The notes under the pieces: generated by a model
Databases searched by the model: none
Told to the model about the DNA's origin: nothing
What the model saw: only the letters and a program-made list of their open reading frames with translations
Shown here: positions 6,316 to 42,987 of the stretch, piece after piece
Numbering within the stretch: position 1 is the stretch's first letter
How the letters are laid out: each line of letters starts with the position of its first letter
From: a phage
Direction: 5' to 3' (one strand)
DNA: 51,874 nt
Sequence record: PZ386979.1
Program-made: the position numbers and the translations under genes

Positions 6316-6347
6316 AATTATGTTGCACGTTTAACAAAAAATGCTAT
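6316..6347 (-). promoter_or_regulatory. conserved element in inverse orientation in capsid gene leader
   Basis: Plus strand reads GTTTAACAAAAAATGCTAT (6329..6347), 7 nt after -10-like AATTAT; upstream of 6394 gene. Confidence 0.4.
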
Positions 6348-10089: not shown

Positions 10090-10108
10090 TTTTAACAAAA
10101 AGTGCTAT
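10090..10108 (-). promoter_or_regulatory. conserved element in inverse orientation in tail chaperone leader
   Basis: Plus strand TTTTAACAAAAAGTGCTAT directly upstream of RBS of 10122 gene; 6 nt after CATAAT (10078..10083). Confidence 0.4.
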
Positions 10109-28785: not shown

Positions 28786-29259
28786 TTAGCAATTAGTGCT
28801 TTCAGGTTTATACAGGAATCCGCCAGGTTCATAATCTGACATTCTTACCACTCGCAACATTTCACGCTTATCACATCTCTTTGTGAGCGGTTTGCCATTG
28901 GAATCAAATCGCAGGTCTGGACGACAAAATGATGCGCGATAGCCTTGACATCCATATTTTTTGTAATCGTTATGCACCTTTTGAGCGCCAGATGCTGAAA
29001 TCATACCGCGAACACGCCACTGGTTTACAGTTTGCTGGCTAACGTTTAGACGTTTTGCCATTGCTGATACACTTCCGTAATACTCAATAAGGATGTCAAG
29101 TCGCGCTTTTAGTCCGGCGCGCACTTCATCTTTTAAAACATAGTATCCTGTAGGGCGTTTGCGTTTCTTCTTATCCTTGCCTCGTCTGGTTCCGTTATTG
29201 CCATTAATTGTGCGCTTGTCAATCTTGCCAGTTGATACTGCGATTCGCTGTTCTTTCAT
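28786..29259 (-). CDS. HTH DNA-binding regulator (Cro/YdaS-like)
   Basis: 157 aa; MAKRLNVSQQTVNQWRVRG helix-turn-helix; basic N-terminus; divergent from helicase gene. Confidence 0.55.
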   Translation of the reverse strand: MKEQRIAVSTGKIDKRTINGNNGTRRGKDKKKRKRPTGYYVLKDEVRAGLKARLDILIEYYGSVSAMAKRLNVSQQTVNQWRVRGMISASGAQKVHNDYKKYGCQGYRASFCRPDLRFDSNGKPLTKRCDKREMLRVVRMSDYEPGGFLYKPESTNC

Positions 29260-29272
29260 TATTCATTCTCCA

Positions 29273-29316
29273 ATAGCATTTTTTGTTAAACGATGATTTA
29301 ATGATTGTGTATTATA
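29273..29316 (+). promoter_or_regulatory. conserved element plus -10 (helicase promoter)
   Basis: ATAGCATTTTTTGTTAAAC, 19-nt spacer, ATTATA/TATTAT; sits between divergent HTH-regulator and helicase genes. Confidence 0.5.
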
Positions 29317-29348
29317 CACGCCAAATGGCATTACTCAAAGGTTTTAGA

Positions 29349-31394
29349 ATGATCCAAAACATTGAAAAGCAAATATCAGCACTTGGTGAAGCGGTAATTA
29401 AATCCATTCAGGAGCGATTCACTGTTGGAGAGATTGTGCCTTACCCTTACCAGTGCGTTGCATACGCTGAGATCGCAAAGCGTATGAAAAATTATGAGCA
29501 TCCATTCTTTGTTAAAGCGTCGGTATCGGCTGGCAAAACATTGATGTTTGCAATGGTTGCTCACCAGTGCCGTAAAATGGGCTTGAAAATGATGGTCCTT
29601 GCTCGCCAGGCTGAGATTGTGGATCAGGATTCTGAAGAGATAACAAATCTTGGCGTGCCGAACTCTATCTATTGTGCAGGACTAAAGACAAAAAGCGCAT
29701 ACTTTCCGATCGTTGTTGGTTCTGAGGGAACTGTAGTTAATGGACTGTTTAAAGCGCTTGGCGACTATGTTCCGCACGTTATCGGGATTGACGAGTGTCA
29801 CCAGGTGGATTGGGAAGACCTTGCCGACGCAATAGAGAAAGACGAATCATTTTTACAAATGACGACGAAGAAAGGCGAAAAAGTACCAAATCCAGATTAT
29901 GACATAACAAAGGGAAGCAGGAACAGAAATATAGAGTTCCTGATTGGTGAGGATGGCTTGCCAATGGAGGGAACAGGCCGCACACAATACACTGTCATTA
30001 TCATGGAAATGATGCGACGTTGCAGGAAAGCATATGGCCATGAACTGCGCATATTTGGCATGACTGGATCGGAGTTTCGCGGTGTAGTCCCAATACTGGT
30101 AGAAGATAAAAAGCAGAAAGGATTTTGGCGTGAACAGGTTACTAATATTGACACCAACTACCTGATCAAGTTCGGTTCTGTTGTTCCGACTAATTTTGGC
30201 GACGTTGGCGATCTCGGGTATGACCTTTCAGAGTTTGAGGCATCAAGCGAGGATGGCGTTGCAGACTTTGACGCTAAAACGCTTCGTAGGATGGAACAAA
30301 AAATTCATGAAGAAGCGACCATGACAAAGCGCATCATGGCGAAAGTGCACGAGATCTGTAAAAACCGTAACGGTGTACTTGTGACATGTGCAGGCGAAAG
30401 GCACTGTAAAGAGGCAGCGGCAGCATTGCCACCTGGAACGACTTACAGGATCATTACTGGTAAGACTGGAGATAACCAGCGAAAGGAGTGGTTGAAAGAA
30501 GCATACGAGGGGAAGGTTAAATACATCTTCCAGGTGCAGGCGCTAACTACTGGCGTTAACGTGCCGTTTTGGGATACGTCTGTTATTCTGCGTAAGATTG
30601 GATCTCTTACGTTGCTGATTCAGCTTTTAGGGCGCGGAATGCGACTACTTAAGAAGTGGCATAAGGAGCAAGGATTCCAGAAAGATGATCATCTCGTCAT
30701 GGATTTTTCAGGAACGATGGACGAGCTAGGGGAGCTTTATTTTGATCCGATACTGGAACAGGCGCAGCATCAGAAGCGATTCAGAAATGGTAAAGATCCG
30801 AAGCCTTGTCCTGTTTGCGGAACTCTTAACAGCTATTATGCTCGTCGTTGTATGCACGTAGACGAAAACGGCAACAGATGCGAGTGGTTCTTTAAATTCA
30901 GGACATGTGATGATCAGATTGACCCGCGCACTAAAAAGATTATTCATCGCGGTTGCGGAACGAAGAATGATATTGCGGCCAGGGTATGCAGACATTGCGA
31001 CATGTCATTGATTGACCCCAACGAGAAGTTAAGCGGAAAGCACTACACAAAAAACGACTGGTTCCAAGTGCAATCTTTCGCGGTTAACATGACGAAAAAC
31101 CAGAAAGGGATAATATTTAATTATGAGCTTTCCGATGGCATAGATACTTTCAAGGCGAGAGAGATATTTTTCCCTGAATCTGAAAGCCAAATTTGTCGCG
31201 CAAAATGGCGAAGCGTTGCTCTTAAGCACATACCAGATCGCCGTGTCGCTGGCATGGTCGCGAGCTATCGTAATGCACGAAAAATAATGCAGTATGTGAA
31301 TCACATTATGCCACCATCGCGCGTTACTCACCGCAAGACTAGCAAGGGCGAAGATAATTTGTACAAGAAGGAATTTAATTATGGCAATGACTGA
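29349..31394 (+). CDS. SF2 DEAD/DEAH-box DNA helicase with C-terminal zinc ribbons
   Basis: Walker A SVSAGKTL, motif II GIDECHQV; C-terminal CPVCG...CRHCD; start moved to ATG 29349 because predicted -10 (29311..29316) lies inside the longer ORF. Confidence 0.8.
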   Translation: MIQNIEKQISALGEAVIKSIQERFTVGEIVPYPYQCVAYAEIAKRMKNYEHPFFVKASVSAGKTLMFAMVAHQCRKMGLKMMVLARQAEIVDQDSEEITNLGVPNSIYCAGLKTKSAYFPIVVGSEGTVVNGLFKALGDYVPHVIGIDECHQVDWEDLADAIEKDESFLQMTTKKGEKVPNPDYDITKGSRNRNIEFLIGEDGLPMEGTGRTQYTVIIMEMMRRCRKAYGHELRIFGMTGSEFRGVVPILVEDKKQKGFWREQVTNIDTNYLIKFGSVVPTNFGDVGDLGYDLSEFEASSEDGVADFDAKTLRRMEQKIHEEATMTKRIMAKVHEICKNRNGVLVTCAGERHCKEAAAALPPGTTYRIITGKTGDNQRKEWLKEAYEGKVKYIFQVQALTTGVNVPFWDTSVILRKIGSLTLLIQLLGRGMRLLKKWHKEQGFQKDDHLVMDFSGTMDELGELYFDPILEQAQHQKRFRNGKDPKPCPVCGTLNSYYARRCMHVDENGNRCEWFFKFRTCDDQIDPRTKKIIHRGCGTKNDIAARVCRHCDMSLIDPNEKLSGKHYTKNDWFQVQSFAVNMTKNQKGIIFNYELSDGIDTFKAREIFFPESESQICRAKWRSVALKHIPDRRVAGMVASYRNARKIMQYVNHIMPPSRVTHRKTSKGEDNLYKKEFNYGND

Positions 31395-35801: not shown

Positions 35802-35993
35802 TTATTCGATACGCTTTACAGTAACCAACAAAACGCCGTCCTCATCACACAAATTATGCTCTGATATGTTAAACGCTCGCATGTCAGAATGAATGAGCGT
35901 TAACATTGCGTGCATGAAGTCGCCATGTGAGATTTGAGAAGTAGCGCAAAACTTAAGAATTTCATCTATCAGTTTACTTTCCATGATTTTCAT
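35802..35993 (-). CDS. hypothetical protein
   Basis: Track ORF 35802..36044 overlaps HNH 3' end; shortened to internal Met; start uncertain. Confidence 0.3.
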   Translation of the reverse strand: MKIMESKLIDEILKFCATSQISHGDFMHAMLTLIHSDMRAFNISEHNLCDEDGVLLVTVKRIE

Positions 35994-36447
35994 GATAACC
36001 AAGTTTAGCCTCTGCTTGTTCTCTTGCCATAATTGCATCATCAATGCTTGAAAATAATCCTAAATGAATACTCTTACCTTTATCATATATGGTTGCATGC
36101 CATTTTTTTTCTTTCTTCCTCCAGCACACTCCAACCCTACCAGATTTATTTCTTTTTAGTAGAGATACGTTTTTGCTGTTCTCTAATCTTGATGCAAGCC
36201 TTAAATTTTCAATCCTGTTATCCAACCTATTGTGCCATATATGATCTATCTCCATTCCTTCTGGTATTTTTCCATTGTGCATTTCCCATATTATCCTATG
36301 CGCCAAAAGCAATACACCATTATACCTTATTCTTACATAGCCATTTTTATCTACACATCCAGCAACGCTTCCTGGCTTTGCTTTTCCCCTTCTGTTTCTC
36401 CATCTCAATATTCCATTGTCATATATAAATATTTTATTCCAATCCAT
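35974..36447 (-). CDS. HNH homing endonuclease (second copy)
   Basis: 157 aa; paralog of 1570..2076 (LAHRIIWEMHNGKIPEGMEIDHI ... LGYHENHGK); gene body visibly more AT-rich than flanks; overlaps both neighbours. Confidence 0.8.
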   Translation of the reverse strand: MDWNKIFIYDNGILRWRNRRGKAKPGSVAGCVDKNGYVRIRYNGVLLLAHRIIWEMHNGKIPEGMEIDHIWHNRLDNRIENLRLASRLENSKNVSLLKRNKSGRVGVCWRKKEKKWHATIYDKGKSIHLGLFSSIDDAIMAREQAEAKLGYHENHGK

Positions 36448-36826
36448 ATCTTTTCCTTAGAGCTTCTATTTGTTGTCTATTAGCATTTGACGTAAACAAT
36501 TCTTCATCGCTCATTTCTCCGATCCTTAAAACATCCCTTACCCATTCGTTTTGCATACCTTCCAGGCTGTAAAGTTCAAACGAGAAGGGGCGATTTGCTG
36601 ATCCTTTCTTACACCAGAACTTTCCACCAACTCCATCAAGATAACCAGCGGTCATCATTCTTGAGCAAAATTCTTTTGAAACGGCAGTTGCAAACATCCT
36701 CGGCGTAAATCCTGCGGCCCTTGCGAGCCGCTCACATTCTCTATGCTGAAATATAAATTTCGCTATATGTTGACGTGTAAACCATTCGAATGACTCACAC
36801 CAGCGATACAGATCCAGAAGAAACAT
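36434..36826 (-). CDS. hypothetical protein
   Basis: 130 aa; start 4 nt after upstream stop (coupled); no recognised motif. Confidence 0.45.
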   Translation of the reverse strand: MFLLDLYRWCESFEWFTRQHIAKFIFQHRECERLARAAGFTPRMFATAVSKEFCSRMMTAGYLDGVGGKFWCKKGSANRPFSFELYSLEGMQNEWVRDVLRIGEMSDEELFTSNANRQQIEALRKRYGLE

Positions 36827-36828
36827 AA

Positions 36829-38412
36829 TTACCCCAGCAATGTTGGATTTACAAAAACAACGCCATTAATCACACAAATATAATTTCTTTCTTCAAGCAT
36901 CGGCAGCAGTTGCGTTTCCATGCGCTTCATTACGCCAGCCTGACCAACAAAAGGCTTAACTTTTCGCGCAGCCTCATATATGGCTCGCACATTCAAAATT
37001 CCCTTGTTAGCCTTACCGTGTCGAGTGATAATCTCGATTAGTTTACCCATTTCAGCATCATCACCAGCATAGCCAGAAGCGTTGGCGGCGCTAATGTATG
37101 TTTTGCTCAACTCGCTAAACATCAGTAGTGCTTCCTGAACGGTTTCAACCTCAATCTCTTTCGACTTTTGAGGGTATCCGCCAGGATTAAACCAATTGCG
37201 GATAGTGTGCAAAACCGAAGCAATTCTGATCACCTGCTTATCCATTTTGCCAAGCGCGCCGCGCAGCATTGTATGAGAATACTTTCCGCCATCGGCAAGG
37301 TGCGGTTCCATCTCCTGACGAGCCATGTTAAGCACTCGCATTGCTGATTTGCTGATCTTAAGCTGGATGTTTGATTCGCTCATTATGTTATGGATCAGCT
37401 TAAAATATTGGCTTTTCAGTTCTCCATCAACAGGCTCATAAGTCGAATCACCGTTATCATCAACAAACTTTCGACGACCTAAAAATGATTCCTCACGCAC
37501 AAGCAAATAACGCTCACTTACACCGATACCGCGTGATCCTGCGTCCATGATGGCATTGATTGTTTCATCCTGGGCAATTACCGCCATGCAGCCAAGAGCT
37601 TTAAAACTCATATTGTTGTCAGCGTTTGCACGAGCTATAGAAACATGACCATGATCCCATGCTTTTAGCACAAGTTCGCTGTTTGTTTTGCGTTCGCTAT
37701 TGGCATATGTCAGGCCTAAAAGGCTGTTAATACTCGTTGCCTCGTCTGAAATTACAGCAAAGTTACCCTGGCGATTGTTGATTCTTGCAAGTCCTTCAGG
37801 CGTGGTGTCTGAAACAGGGAAAACAATGTCACACATCTTTTCCAGCTTTTCTTCAAGATCTTCTTTCTCCTGGTATAGCGATTCCATATCAGCGCCAGAT
37901 CGCTCGCTTTTCATCTCTTTTGCAAGACCTGCCAACTTTGCCTGAATCTTTTTCCGTTCCTTCTTTCGCTGATCATTAATTCTTTCCACTTCAGCAACCA
38001 TAGGAGCAAGAGCCAGGCTGTTAACGGCAGATTTACCAGTTGAAGGAGGCTGACTTGTGACAACATAAAGGGCGGTTGGCTGATCCGTTCCGTGATACTC
38101 AACCGTGAAGCGTCCAAGCATTGCAGCAGACACGCAGCCGATAAAATGCATATAGGCCGATGATTCAGGGAATTGAACAGAGCGAGCAATGTTTCGCGCC
38201 AACTTACCAACAACATCAACATCATTGCCAAGAGAAATTACAGGGTAGCGATCGTTTCCGTTATTAACATCATTAACCTCACCCCAAAAGCTGGACGATT
38301 GACGGTATCCGTTAGCCTGAATGGACACGCGCACCGGAGACAATCCTTGTGCATCAGCTAATTCGATAATTTGTTTTGGTGTTAGTTTATTTGTTTCAAA
38401 CGAAAAATTCAT
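36829..38412 (-). CDS. P-loop ATPase, putative replication protein (DUF3987-like)
   Basis: Start at ATG 38412 behind AAGGAG RBS; Walker A-like QPPSTGKSA and Walker B-like VISDEATS; adjacent to replication genes. Confidence 0.5.
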   Translation of the reverse strand: MNFSFETNKLTPKQIIELADAQGLSPVRVSIQANGYRQSSSFWGEVNDVNNGNDRYPVISLGNDVDVVGKLARNIARSVQFPESSAYMHFIGCVSAAMLGRFTVEYHGTDQPTALYVVTSQPPSTGKSAVNSLALAPMVAEVERINDQRKKERKKIQAKLAGLAKEMKSERSGADMESLYQEKEDLEEKLEKMCDIVFPVSDTTPEGLARINNRQGNFAVISDEATSINSLLGLTYANSERKTNSELVLKAWDHGHVSIARANADNNMSFKALGCMAVIAQDETINAIMDAGSRGIGVSERYLLVREESFLGRRKFVDDNGDSTYEPVDGELKSQYFKLIHNIMSESNIQLKISKSAMRVLNMARQEMEPHLADGGKYSHTMLRGALGKMDKQVIRIASVLHTIRNWFNPGGYPQKSKEIEVETVQEALLMFSELSKTYISAANASGYAGDDAEMGKLIEIITRHGKANKGILNVRAIYEAARKVKPFVGQAGVMKRMETQLLPMLEERNYICVINGVVFVNPTLLG

Positions 38413-38439
38413 TGATGATAACTCCTTTTTGATGCGGCA

Positions 38440-38483
38440 ATAATACCGCACCAATGCTACCCGCATTTAACAAAAAATGCTAT
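38440..38483 (-). promoter_or_regulatory. conserved element plus -10 (upstream of DUF3987-like gene)
   Basis: Minus-sense ATAGCATTTTTTGTTAAA containing upstream stop TAG; 20-nt spacer; TATTAT; then AAGGAG RBS. Confidence 0.5.
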
Positions 38484-38701
38484 TTGATCCGCTCTATGCT
38501 AACTAAGATTTTTTCTGGTTCCTTTGCGCTATGGCAATGCGCGGTTACGGAATCAACAAAATCAAAATAAAGTGATTTGTGGTAAGAAAGACCAATCATC
38601 CATCCAACCATCGTTTTCTTTATTGGCCTGACTATATCGCCAGGCTTGAAGGTTTTTGTTGCTGAATAAGTCACCTTATAGCGATATTCAGTCTTGATCA
38701 C
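38480..38701 (-). CDS. hypothetical protein
   Basis: 73 aa; GTG start per ORF track; stop TAG lies inside a conserved element copy. Confidence 0.4.
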   Translation of the reverse strand: MIKTEYRYKVTYSATKTFKPGDIVRPIKKTMVGWMIGLSYHKSLYFDFVDSVTAHCHSAKEPEKILVSIERIK

Positions 38702-42085: not shown

Positions 42086-42381
42086 TTGCTGACTGGTCAT
42101 TATTCCTTCTATTCCATTAATCAGGAATAACAGGAATAATTCATTCGCGATCACCTGGATTGTGAGACTTTGAGTTTGATCAATTTTAATCAGTTGATTA
42201 ACTTTTTGTGTGGAGGGGATGGAGAAACGCGGCCCTCTTGCATCCTTTCCGGCAATCCTGGCGCGCGCATCTGTTATTTCTGTTCCCCATGTTATCTCAA
42301 ATAAGCCTCCGCACTTTTAGATAACAGAATCGGCGTTCATCAACAAAAAGAACAAAATAAAATTTATATATATACCAATAA

Positions 42382-42396
42382 AATCAATAAGTTAGT
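42382..42396 (+). repeat. AATCAATAAGTTAGT 15-mer (copy 2)
   Basis: Identical to 21041..21055. Confidence 0.6.
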
Positions 42397-42626
42397 TATA
42401 TATGTATTTATATTTGTTATTTACTGTTGAGCTTGTTCCATGGGTATATGGTGGGTGTTGATGATTCCTTCATTTAACATTTGTACTTTTTATGCGGTTA
42501 TATATATAGATTTTGCGGCATTATCGAGACAACCAGTGAACGAGATTGAACGAGCTTTAAAATCAATCACTTGCGCGCAATTTTGTTATCGCGTCAAAAA
42601 AAGATGTTATTAGAACGAAAAATCAG

Positions 42627-42655
42627 TTGACTACCTGGCTGTGAGTATTGATAAT
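42627..42655 (+). promoter_or_regulatory. sigma70-like early promoter (TTGACT-17-GATAAT) for rightward early operon
   Basis: -35 TTGACT 42627..42632, -10 GATAAT 42650..42655; upstream TTAGAACGAAAAA block shared with promoter at 21298. Confidence 0.6.
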
Positions 42656-42687
42656 GCACGCAGACAAAACGAAAAGGGAGACAGCAC

Positions 42688-42987
42688 ATGACAAAAATGC
42701 TTGCAATAAACCGAAAACTTGAAGTGAAAGAGATGTCACAAGATGATATTGATGATTTGGCGCGCGGCATGACAACAGGTTACATGCGGAGAATTGTCAA
42801 TCACTTGATTAACTCTGAACGAAATAAGGCCGTATACATCAGCATAAATCACGCTGGAGGGAATGCTGCATCAATGCGACAGATGATTAACAACGTGGCA
42901 AAAGAGTTAAATGTTGATGTTAAGACGTTTGTTGTTGATGGATTCCTGGGCCTGGTAATACTTGAAGTTAACGAAGCGTTTGCATAA
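42688..42987 (+). CDS. hypothetical protein (first rightward early gene)
   Basis: 99 aa; AAGGGAG RBS; 30 nt after sigma70-like promoter TTGACT-17-GATAAT. Confidence 0.5.
   Translation: MTKMLAINRKLEVKEMSQDDIDDLARGMTTGYMRRIVNHLINSERNKAVYISINHAGGNAASMRQMINNVAKELNVDVKTFVVDGFLGLVILEVNEAFA

What the first reader, a model, noticed from the sequence alone, without database searches (positions are those of the whole stretch)
36829..38412. Large P-loop ATPase (DUF3987-like) near the replication genes
528-aa protein with degenerate Walker A (PPSTGKS) and Walker B (VISDEATS), preceded by an element-type promoter. With the SF2 helicase and primase elsewhere it may be a replicative helicase or loader; its long N- and C-terminal extensions are uncharacterised.
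Basis: inference. Interest (0 to 1): 0.45.

Follow-up and report, generated by a model that had tools for sequence, protein, structure and literature searches.

The report
MCM-like replicative helicase of T1-like phage
The gene is real and encodes the DUF3987-family, MCM-like ring-helicase ATPase that T1-like phages carry next to (or near) their primase; this family and its predicted replication role are already described, so the finding is correct but ordinary.

Summary
The window is a complete ~51.9-kb Hanrivervirus (Drexlerviridae, T1-like) genome. The ORF exists on the minus strand, 36829-38412 (527 aa plus stop). It has an AAGGAG ribosome-binding site and a copy of the phage's repeated promoter-like element upstream. 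It matches Pfam DUF3987 (E 1.8e-43) and PHROG 2373 'DNA helicase'. It is 99% identical to proteins already annotated 'DNA helicase' in sequenced relatives.

In 57 unrelated phage contigs the gene lies within 1.5 kb of a DnaG-type primase in 31, and within 3.5 kb of the SF2 helicase in 44. Fusions to DnaG zinc-ribbon, PriCT and DnaB-N domains exist.

Best reading: a hexameric replicative helicase, not a loader, working with the phage primase and host Pol III. The family's MCM relationship was published in 2016 and helicase activity of one member in 2025. Low novelty.

The parts
36829..38412 (-). DUF3987-family gene (527 aa plus stop): MCM-like AAA+ putative replicative helicase
38466..38480 (-). 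Copy of the phage's repeated promoter-like element GCAYTTTTTGTTAAA
   Evidence: 12 exact copies in the window. No shuffle out of 100 reaches the observed count. Aligned copies with flanks. The same element is described as a 21-nt direct repeat in phage TLS (PMC11447400).
38440..38445 (-). -10-like hexamer TATTAT, 20 nt downstream of the element
   Evidence: The equivalent hexamers at other copies are CATAAT, TATAAT, TATATT and TACATT. Function is inferred, not tested.
38422..38427 (-). Ribosome-binding site AAGGAG, 9 nt before the ATG at 38412
38287..38379 (-). N-terminal three-helix unit (residues 12-42), followed by a low-confidence linker (residues 43-66, containing the conserved W43)
   Evidence: AF2 secondary structure and pLDDT. 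W43 conservation. No function assigned.
38029..38049 (-). Walker A / P-loop, PPSTGKS (residues 122-128); K127 is invariant
37828..37998 (-). Family-specific helical hairpin (residues ~139-195) inserted between the Walker A helix and strand beta2
   Evidence: AF2 helices 127-167 and 173-192. The Pfam DUF3987 model covers it without a large gap. It is the only part that draws (spurious) coiled-coil hits in PDB sequence searches.
37732..37755 (-). Walker B, VISDEATS (residues 220-227); E224 is invariant
37591..37656 (-). Beta-hairpin before sensor 1 (residues 253-274) with invariant R261 in the loop between the strands (codon 37630-37632)
   Evidence: AF2 strands 253-259 and 268-280. R261 is invariant in 91 sequences. 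Assignment as a DNA-contacting pre-sensor-1 hairpin is an inference by analogy with MCM.
37564..37578 (-). IAQDE (residues 279-283), end of strand beta4: sensor-1 position
   Evidence: Invariant in A1, and A280/Q281 are at least 90% conserved in A2. Strand position.
37507..37518 (-). SERY (residues 299-302): arginine-finger candidate R301, just before strand beta5, resembling the MCM 'SRF' motif
   Evidence: R301 and G297 are invariant in 91 sequences. Strand 303-306. The MCM motif is recalled from established knowledge.
37237..37269 (-). MLRGALGKMDK (residues 382-392) in the lid helices: sensor-2 candidates R384 and K389 (K389 invariant)
   Evidence: Helices 381-388 and 390-406.
36832..37149 (-). 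C-terminal module: two long helices (residues 422-468) and a winged helix (residues 470-527)
36434..36826 (-). 130-aa winged-helix protein gene, 2 nt after the helicase stop codon; a Drexlerviridae-specific companion
27798..28832 (-). Phage primase: T7 gp4-type zinc ribbon with the primase half only, no helicase half. Presumed partner.
   Evidence: Pfam Zn_Ribbon_Prim E 7e-13. PHROG 510 'DNA primase' matches positions 3-316 of a 667-position profile. Homologous primases abut DUF3987 genes in other phages.
28786..29259 (-). YdaS/Cro-like HTH protein gene immediately upstream of the primase
   Evidence: The same HTH type precedes the primase-DUF3987 pair in L003 and the DUF3987 gene in L121 and L140.
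29283..31394 (+). SF2 (ResIII/Helicase_C) helicase, a regular neighbour of DUF3987 genes elsewhere. Its true start is probably the ATG at 29349.

Best explanation
The gene encodes the phage's replicative DNA helicase, a DUF3987-family AAA+ ATPase whose motor domain is built like MCM (helicase superfamily 6).

Proposed mechanism:
- The protein assembles into a ring, probably a hexamer.
- ATP binds at subunit interfaces. The P-loop (K127) and Walker B (E224) come from one subunit, and the arginine finger (R301) from its neighbour.
- Hydrolysis moves a beta-hairpin carrying the invariant R261 in the central channel. This pulls single-stranded DNA through the ring and unwinds the fork.
- The helicase works with the phage's DnaG/T7-gp4-type primase. 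The phage has no polymerase gene, so it must also work with the host DNA polymerase III.
- The C-terminal winged helix, and possibly the co-translated 130-aa winged-helix protein, would serve for DNA or partner binding during loading.

Shown here: family membership, the AAA+/MCM-like fold in a predicted model, motif invariance, and genomic linkage to primases.

Inferred: oligomeric state, DNA contacts, polarity, partners, and essentiality in this phage.
For: - Family: Pfam DUF3987 E 1.8e-43; PHROG 2373 'DNA helicase'.
- Motifs: K127, T204, E224, R261, G297, R301 and K389 are invariant in 91 homologues at 25-40% identity. The hairpin 253-280 directly precedes the sensor-1 strand.
- Context: in phages with 38-39% identical homologues the gene overlaps or abuts a primase gene. 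In 57 non-Drexlerviridae viral contigs, 31 have a DnaG-like primase within 1.5 kb and 44 have the SF2 helicase within 3.5 kb.
- Fusions: DnaG zinc ribbon, PriCT_2 and DnaB N-terminal domain are each found fused to DUF3987.
- No other candidate: no ring helicase, loader or polymerase was found among the window genes scanned.
- Distribution: present in all 80 best Drexlerviridae loci.
- Literature: DUF3987 was predicted as a divergent SF6/MCM-like replicative helicase with a C-terminal wHTH, and the N4 dns protein of this family is essential for replication (PMC4889955). The PriCT-DUF3987 protein AgaPH unwinds DNA 5'->3', needs Walker A and B, and binds its primase-polymerase (PMC11724360).
Against: - No experiment exists on any Drexlerviridae member.
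- In this phage the gene is ~8 kb from the primase, in a different gene block, so the linkage argument rests on other phages.
- The fold evidence is a predicted monomer. Ring formation and channel geometry were not modelled.
- No sequence-level link to MCM was obtained here: HMMER against Pfam and PDB finds only DUF3987 or coiled-coil noise.
- The one biochemical study reports 5'->3' polarity, opposite to MCM. The mechanism therefore cannot simply be copied from MCM.
- An old T1 study (Bourque & Christensen 1980, recalled from memory, not checked here) reported dependence on host elongation dna genes. If dnaB is among them, this protein might not be the fork helicase.
- A second helicase (SF2) is always nearby and could carry part of the role.
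Confidence: 0.75

Rival explanations
1. It is a combined initiator-helicase or a helicase loader. It would recognise the phage origin through its winged helix and either melt the origin itself or load the host DnaB, as lambda P/DnaC or ORC/Cdc6-type AAA+ proteins do, rather than act as the fork helicase.
For: - No separate initiator or loader was recognised among the window genes scanned.
- A winged-helix protein is encoded immediately downstream.
- The phage relies on the host polymerase.
Against: - A beta-hairpin with an invariant arginine precedes sensor 1, which is typical of translocases and not of the initiator/loader clade (clade features from established AAA+ classification).
- The domain replaces known helicase domains in primase fusions and is fused to the DnaB N-terminal domain (PMC5862659).
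- A family member unwinds DNA (PMC11724360).
- Origin recognition combined with helicase activity is compatible with the main explanation. Only the pure-loader version is a true rival.
Confidence: 0.1
2. It is a recombination or repair motor, such as a branch-migration or fork-restart helicase like ComM, RadA or MCM8/9. It would serve the phage's recombination-dependent replication and concatemer formation together with Erf, exonuclease VIII, SSB, the SF2 helicase and the VRR-NUC nuclease.
For: - The commonest neighbour in other phages is the SF2 helicase, followed by recombination genes: DUF3799 exonuclease, ERF and SSB.
- The window carries a full recombination set.
Against: - Primase adjacency and primase or DnaB-N fusions point to fork priming rather than branch migration.
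- The N4 family member is essential for replication (PMC4889955).
- Replicative MCM2-7 and archaeal MCM score at least as high as MCM8/9.
Confidence: 0.1
3. It is a non-helicase AAA+ remodelling ATPase of the MoxR/RavA/Mg-chelatase type, or another P-loop enzyme, with no direct role on DNA.
Against: - These matches score lower than all 13 MCM hits.
- The gene sits in a phage replication-gene context and has primase fusions.
- It carries a C-terminal winged helix.
- A family member has demonstrated helicase activity (PMC11724360).
Confidence: 0.03

Closest known systems
DUF3987 family (Pfam PF13148), including AgaPH (the PriCT-DUF3987 helicase of a Seonamhaeicola mobile element) and the phage N4 dns protein
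   Same: Full-length match to the family model. Walker A in the family-typical variant form, Walker B DE, a C-terminal small or winged-helix domain, and association with a primase. AgaPH is an oligomeric, ATP/dATP-dependent 5'->3' helicase that binds its primase-polymerase (PMC11724360). The family was predicted to provide phage replicative helicases (PMC4889955).
   Different: It is a stand-alone protein with no PriCT or AEP domain. Its partner would be a DnaG/T7-gp4-type primase encoded ~8 kb away, not an adjacent AEP PrimPol. It has a Drexlerviridae-specific N-terminal ~60 residues. A lineage-specific winged-helix protein is encoded directly downstream. No biochemistry exists for this subgroup.
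MCM helicases (superfamily 6; archaeal MCM, eukaryotic MCM2-7, MCM8/9)
   Different: About 12-14% sequence identity, and no HMMER-level similarity. It lacks the N-terminal OB-fold/zinc-finger tier. It has a ~55-residue helical hairpin inserted after the Walker A helix that MCM lacks. No beta-hairpin is seen in helix 2 of the model. A family member was reported to have 5'->3' polarity, whereas MCM moves 3'->5'.
Cch (DUF927) of staphylococcal SCCmec and the SaPI5 primase-helicase
   Different: They are weaker structural matches than MCM and belong to different Pfam families.
DnaB / T7 gp4 helicase domain (superfamily 4, RecA fold)
   Same: The expected job is the same: a ring helicase paired with a DnaG-type primase. 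The window's primase is the primase half of a gp4-type protein. A DnaB N-terminal domain is fused to DUF3987 in one relative (P0198).
   Different: The fold is different (AAA+, not RecA). There is no Pfam DnaB_C match.

Membership tests
DUF3987 (Pfam PF13148) | Score above the curated Pfam gathering threshold over most of the model | tested here: met
   149.6 bits against a cut-off of 27; residues 82-431 cover model positions 3-350 of 364. All 91 aligned homologues also match.
DUF3987 (Pfam PF13148) | Conserved Walker A (variant GxxxxGK[ST]) and Walker B (DE), which are required for helicase activity in AgaPH | tested here: met
   QPPSTGKS at 121-128 and ISDE at 221-224; K127 and E224 are invariant. 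The requirement was shown only for AgaPH (PMC11724360).
DUF3987 (Pfam PF13148) | [quoted passage not shown] | tested here: met
DUF3987 (Pfam PF13148) | Association with a primase, either fused or encoded alongside | tested here: inconclusive
   In the window the primase is ~8 kb away. In relatives it is adjacent (31 of 57 loci) or fused.
DUF3987 (Pfam PF13148) | ATP-dependent DNA unwinding | not testable with these tools
   Needs purified protein.
MCM-like AAA+ / helicase superfamily 6 | AAA+ core with Walker A, Walker B, sensor 1, a trans-acting arginine finger before beta5, and sensor 2 in the lid | tested here: met
   Motif positions on the AF2 secondary structure together with invariance. 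Action in trans is not shown.
MCM-like AAA+ / helicase superfamily 6 | Pre-sensor-1 beta-hairpin with a basic residue that contacts DNA | tested here: met
   Strands 253-259 and 268-280, with invariant R261 in the connecting loop. DNA contact is inferred.
MCM-like AAA+ / helicase superfamily 6 | Helix-2 insert hairpin and pre-sensor-2 insert helix | tested here: inconclusive
MCM-like AAA+ / helicase superfamily 6 | N-terminal OB-fold/zinc-finger DNA-binding tier | tested here: not met
   The N-terminus is three short helices and a linker, with no strands before residue 102.
MCM-like AAA+ / helicase superfamily 6 | Sequence-detectable homology to Pfam MCM (PF00493) | tested here: not met
   No MCM hit with HMMER even at E<=10 for 91 members or with a family profile against PDB. 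A profile-profile link of 98% is reported by PMC4889955 for another member; that comparison was not run here.
DnaB-type helicase (superfamily 4) | RecA-fold C-terminal domain (Pfam DnaB_C) and DnaB N-terminal domain | tested here: not met
   No such Pfam match. The structural matches are AAA+ proteins.
Helicase loaders / initiators (DnaC, ORC/Cdc6 clade) | AAA+ core closest to the initiator clade, without a pre-sensor-1 hairpin | tested here: not met
   Initiator hits are limited to ~80-125 aligned residues, mostly the winged helix. The hairpin is present.

The most novel reading that the evidence does not exclude
Drexlerviridae replace DnaB at the fork with an MCM-fold ring helicase that runs with DnaB-like 5'->3' polarity. 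Its family-specific helical hairpin (residues ~139-195) or its N-terminal unit would dock the phage primase and the host Pol III clamp-loader/tau. The co-translated 130-aa winged-helix protein would be its origin-binding loader. Together this would be a hybrid archaeal-type helicase and bacterial polymerase replisome.
Probability: 0.15. Interest if true: 0.6.

Novelty: already known. Interest (0 to 1): 0.2.

Why it matters
The result assigns the ring-helicase role in a polymerase-less T1-like phage to a specific gene, and it distinguishes that gene from a loader. It also points to a question that can be tested by experiment: how an MCM-fold helicase couples to a DnaG-type primase and to the host Pol III holoenzyme, and with which polarity. 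The identification itself repeats existing annotation and published family analyses. Its main value is a cleaner annotation (start codon, motifs, domain map, companion gene), not a discovery.

Tried and rejected
- Sequence search of the protein, and of a 91-sequence family profile, against all PDB chains. Only coiled-coil noise on the helical hairpin came back, so no DUF3987 structure has been solved.
- NCBIfam scan: nothing meaningful.
- Pfam scan of all 91 homologues at E<=10, looking for a weak MCM or Mg-chelatase signal. Only DUF3987 and coiled-coil noise appeared.
- PDB sequence search with the primase: no hit.
- Plain sigma-70 promoter scan. It found fewer sites than in shuffles and did not call the site upstream of the gene. 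The repeated element was found only by reading two neighbouring upstream regions side by side.
- Search for iterons or an origin in or around the gene. There are only short two-copy repeats, nothing within the gene, and an AT-rich repeat-bearing region at ~42.1-42.7 kb. GATC density in the gene (10 against ~6 expected) is unremarkable.
- The 545-aa reading from the ATG at 38466 was rejected, because that ATG lies inside the promoter-like element and has no RBS.
- 'Split' helicase homologues (P0090, P0117) were first suspected to be interrupted by homing endonucleases. They are in fact segment-scrambled ORFs, most likely assembly artefacts.
- Literature searches for T1 host-gene dependence and for defence-escape mutations in this gene found nothing usable.
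- The first related-loci scan returned only close Drexlerviridae. A second scan seeded with distant homologues was needed.

Full report
**What the window is.** Over 24 kb the window is 97% identical to Escherichia phage vB_EcoD_Fulano1 (Drexlerviridae, Tempevirinae, Hanrivervirus). It has the size and layout of a complete T1-like genome.

**Checking the observation.**
- The ORF lies on the minus strand at 36829-38412 and encodes 527 residues plus a stop codon.
- The longest mechanical ORF begins at an ATG at 38466. That codon sits inside a repeated promoter-like element and has no ribosome-binding site.
- The ATG at 38412 is preceded by AAGGAG at 38422-38427, and all homologues begin there.
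- The protein matches Pfam DUF3987 at E 1.8e-43 over residues 82-431, and PHROG 2373 'DNA helicase' at about 1e-245.
- It is 99% identical to a protein annotated 'DNA helicase' in phage herni. The gene is present, usually labelled helicase, in 175 phage records.

**The upstream element.**
- The sequence before this gene and the one before its upstream neighbour share a common block.
- GCAYTTTTTGTTAAA occurs 12 times exactly in the window. Allowing up to 3 mismatches gives 22 matches against 8.8 expected, and no shuffle out of 100 reaches that count.
- Each exact copy is preceded by 'ATA' and followed about 20 nt later by a -10-like hexamer, then by a ribosome-binding site and a start codon.
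- The copy serving this gene is at 38466-38480, with TATTAT at 38440-38445.
- The same element has been described in phage TLS as a 21-nt direct repeat, aaATAGCACnnnTTGnTAAAA, of unknown role. Suggested roles there were promoter-associated, UP-like or operator-like (PMC11447400).
- The spacing from TTGTTA to the -10 hexamer is 22 nt, which is not a canonical sigma-70 arrangement, and a standard scan misses it.
- Promoter function is therefore plausible but untested.

**Structure.**
- An AlphaFold2 model built on 33 homologues is confident (pLDDT 87.3, pTM 0.85).
- Read from its secondary structure, the protein has these parts:
  - a small three-helix unit (residues 12-42);
  - a flexible linker (43-66);
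  - two helices (67-98);
  - an alpha/beta ATPase core (strands from residue 102 to 306);
  - a helical lid (330-406);
  - two long helices (422-468);
  - a winged helix (470-527).
- ORC/Cdc6, cullin, Stn1, Scc1 and histone H1 hits cover only the winged helix.
- In Foldseek, all 25 hits with E<=1e-3 are chains of MCM complexes.
- No PDB chain is detectable by sequence, even with a 91-sequence profile. No member of this family has a solved structure.

**Conserved residues.**
- Across 91 homologues that are 25-40% identical to the query, the invariant residues are K127, T204, E224, R261, G297, R301 and K389.
- Placed on the model:
  - K127 is the P-loop lysine after strand 116-120.
  - E224 is the Walker B glutamate at the end of strand 218-222.
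  - R261 is in the loop between the two strands of the hairpin (253-259 and 268-280). That hairpin runs directly into the sensor-1 strand ending in IAQDE.
  - R301 lies in G-x-S-E-R-[F/Y] immediately before strand 303-306. This is the position and context of the MCM 'SRF' arginine finger (the MCM motif is recalled from established knowledge).
  - K389, with R384 in the closer set, lies in the lid where sensor 2 is expected.
- The so-called degenerate Walker A departs from the consensus only in its first glycine, and the lysine (K127) is invariant across the family.
- One feature absent from MCM is a helical hairpin of about 55 residues (139-195). It extends the Walker A helix before strand beta2. 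The Pfam family model covers it without a large gap, and it is the source of all spurious coiled-coil hits.
- The invariant T204 and the conserved E206, just after beta2, have no assigned role.

**Genomic context.**
- The window carries the following replication and recombination genes:
  - a primase with a T7-gp4-type zinc ribbon that matches only the primase half of a primase-helicase profile (27798-28832);
  - a YdaS/Cro-like HTH gene just upstream of the primase;
  - an SF2 helicase followed by a VRR-NUC nuclease;
  - exonuclease VIII, Erf and SSB-like genes.
- None of the window genes scanned is a polymerase, a DnaB-type helicase or a loader.
- In this phage the DUF3987 gene is about 8 kb from the primase. 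In phages with homologues only 38-39% identical, the two genes overlap or abut. One contig has HTH, primase, DUF3987 in that order; another has DUF3987, primase, SF2 helicase.
- I fetched 57 viral contigs outside Drexlerviridae and searched their ORFs with profiles built from the primase and the SF2 helicase. A DnaG-like primase lies within 1.5 kb in 31 of them, and the SF2 helicase within 3.5 kb in 44. The commonest order is DUF3987, primase, SF2 helicase on one strand.
- Where no primase was detected, the upstream gene is an unassigned protein of ~190-250 aa or a YdaS-like HTH protein.
- Among 2,374 family representatives (E<=1e-3), longer proteins carry fused domains: a DnaG zinc ribbon, PriCT_2 or a DnaB N-terminal domain.

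**Comparison with what is known.**
- Kazlauskas et al. (PMC4889955) identified phage DUF3987 proteins as divergent superfamily-6 (MCM-like) helicases with a C-terminal wHTH. They noted association with AEP or DnaG primases, predicted a replicative role, and pointed out that the N4 dns protein of this family is essential for replication.
- Kazlauskas et al. 2018 (PMC5862659) list DUF3987 among the ATPase domains that replace known helicase domains in primase fusions.
- A 2025 study (PMC11724360) showed that a PriCT-DUF3987 protein, AgaPH, is an oligomeric ATP/dATP-dependent helicase with 5'->3' polarity. Its activity is abolished by Walker A and Walker B mutations, and it binds its primase-polymerase.
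- The protein in the window passes the family test. It shares the MCM motor architecture but lacks the MCM N-terminal OB/zinc tier and has an extra helical hairpin. It should be filed as a DUF3987-family helicase with an MCM-like fold, not as an MCM.

**Mechanism and rivals.**
- The best-supported reading (about 0.75) is a ring-shaped replicative helicase that works with the phage primase and host Pol III.
- A pure loader or initiator role is unlikely, for three reasons: the ATPase core matches a translocase; the hairpin before sensor 1 is present with an invariant arginine; and the domain substitutes for helicase domains in fusions. Origin recognition by the winged helix in addition to helicase activity remains possible.
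- A recombination or fork-restart motor cannot be excluded. Recombination genes are regular neighbours, and MCM8/9 and ComM are among the structural matches.
- Polarity is open. The fold suggests 3'->5', but the only biochemical report for the family says 5'->3'.
- Ring formation, DNA contacts, partners and essentiality are inferences.

**The downstream companion gene.**
- The gene 2 nt downstream (36434-36826, 130 aa) abuts the DUF3987 gene (gap <=20 nt) in 72 of 79 Drexlerviridae loci.
- It has homologues only in this phage group.
- It is a candidate DNA-binding accessory of the helicase. Nothing here shows that role.

**Verdict.** The gene is already annotated as a helicase in close relatives, and the family's nature is in the literature. 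Novelty is low and interest modest.

Noticed in passing
window 6330-6344, 10091-10105, 20910-20924 (minus strand); other copies at 29276, 31800, 32841, 38466, 39142, 41195, 42068, 43726, 44944, 49266: The repeated element GCAYTTTTTGTTAAA, each copy with a downstream -10-like hexamer, has 12 exact copies plus 2 copies with one mismatch (20910-20924 and 46608). Most point the same way as the local genes. Three lie on the minus strand inside the plus-strand structural gene block. The one at 20924 is followed by an RBS and an ATG; the other two would give antisense transcripts.
   Followed up: partly
window 36434-36826 (minus strand): A 130-aa gene lies 2 nt after the helicase stop codon. It is Drexlerviridae-specific, abuts the DUF3987 gene in 72 of 79 related loci, and is predicted to be a winged-helix protein. 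Some records label it 'YdbL', which looks like a carried-over name.
   Followed up: yes
window 38480-38701 and 36826-36829, compared with L001 8487-8987 and 10644-11117: The close relative Fulano1 has HNH endonuclease genes on both sides of the helicase gene. The window has a 73-aa ORF in place of the upstream one and nothing in place of the downstream one. The window's own HNH-AP2 gene (35974-36447) sits one gene further down. The helicase gene therefore lies in a region where homing endonucleases come and go.
   Followed up: partly
P0090 (Shigella phage 2019SD1) and P0117 (Citrobacter phage HCF1): The 'helicase' proteins of these two records contain the same segments as the window protein, but in scrambled and partly duplicated order. 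This is most likely an assembly artefact and not a real rearrangement.
   Followed up: partly
window ~42100-42700: An AT-rich region lies where the minus-strand and plus-strand early gene blocks diverge. It has three copies of AATCAGTTGATTAAC-like repeats, TATATATA inverted repeats and a good sigma-70 match (TTGACT/GATAAT at 42627-42655). It could be a divergent control region or an origin candidate.
   Followed up: no
P0198, P0148, P0229 (family representatives): Some DUF3987 domains are fused to a DnaB N-terminal domain, a DnaG CHC2 zinc ribbon or PriCT_2. The DnaB-N fusion suggests that the AAA+ motor can take the place of DnaB's RecA-type motor.
   Followed up: partly
window 29283-29349: The mechanical start of the SF2 helicase ORF (TTG at 29283) overlaps a promoter-like element at 29276-29290. 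The real start is probably the ATG at 29349, which follows the -10-like hexamer.
   Followed up: partly
phage records MG065670, MG065671 and 18 others: Twenty records named 'Campylobacter phage' with host Campylobacter jejuni match this coliphage gene; the two listed, A120 and A121, are ~96% identical to it. This is an odd host attribution for T1-like enterobacterial phages.
   Followed up: no
L110, L113, L127, L105, L117 (gene overlapping the start of the DUF3987 gene): In many marine or environmental phage contigs without a detectable primase, a protein of ~190-230 aa with no Pfam match overlaps the start of the DUF3987 gene. It could be a very divergent primase or an unknown partner.
   Followed up: partly
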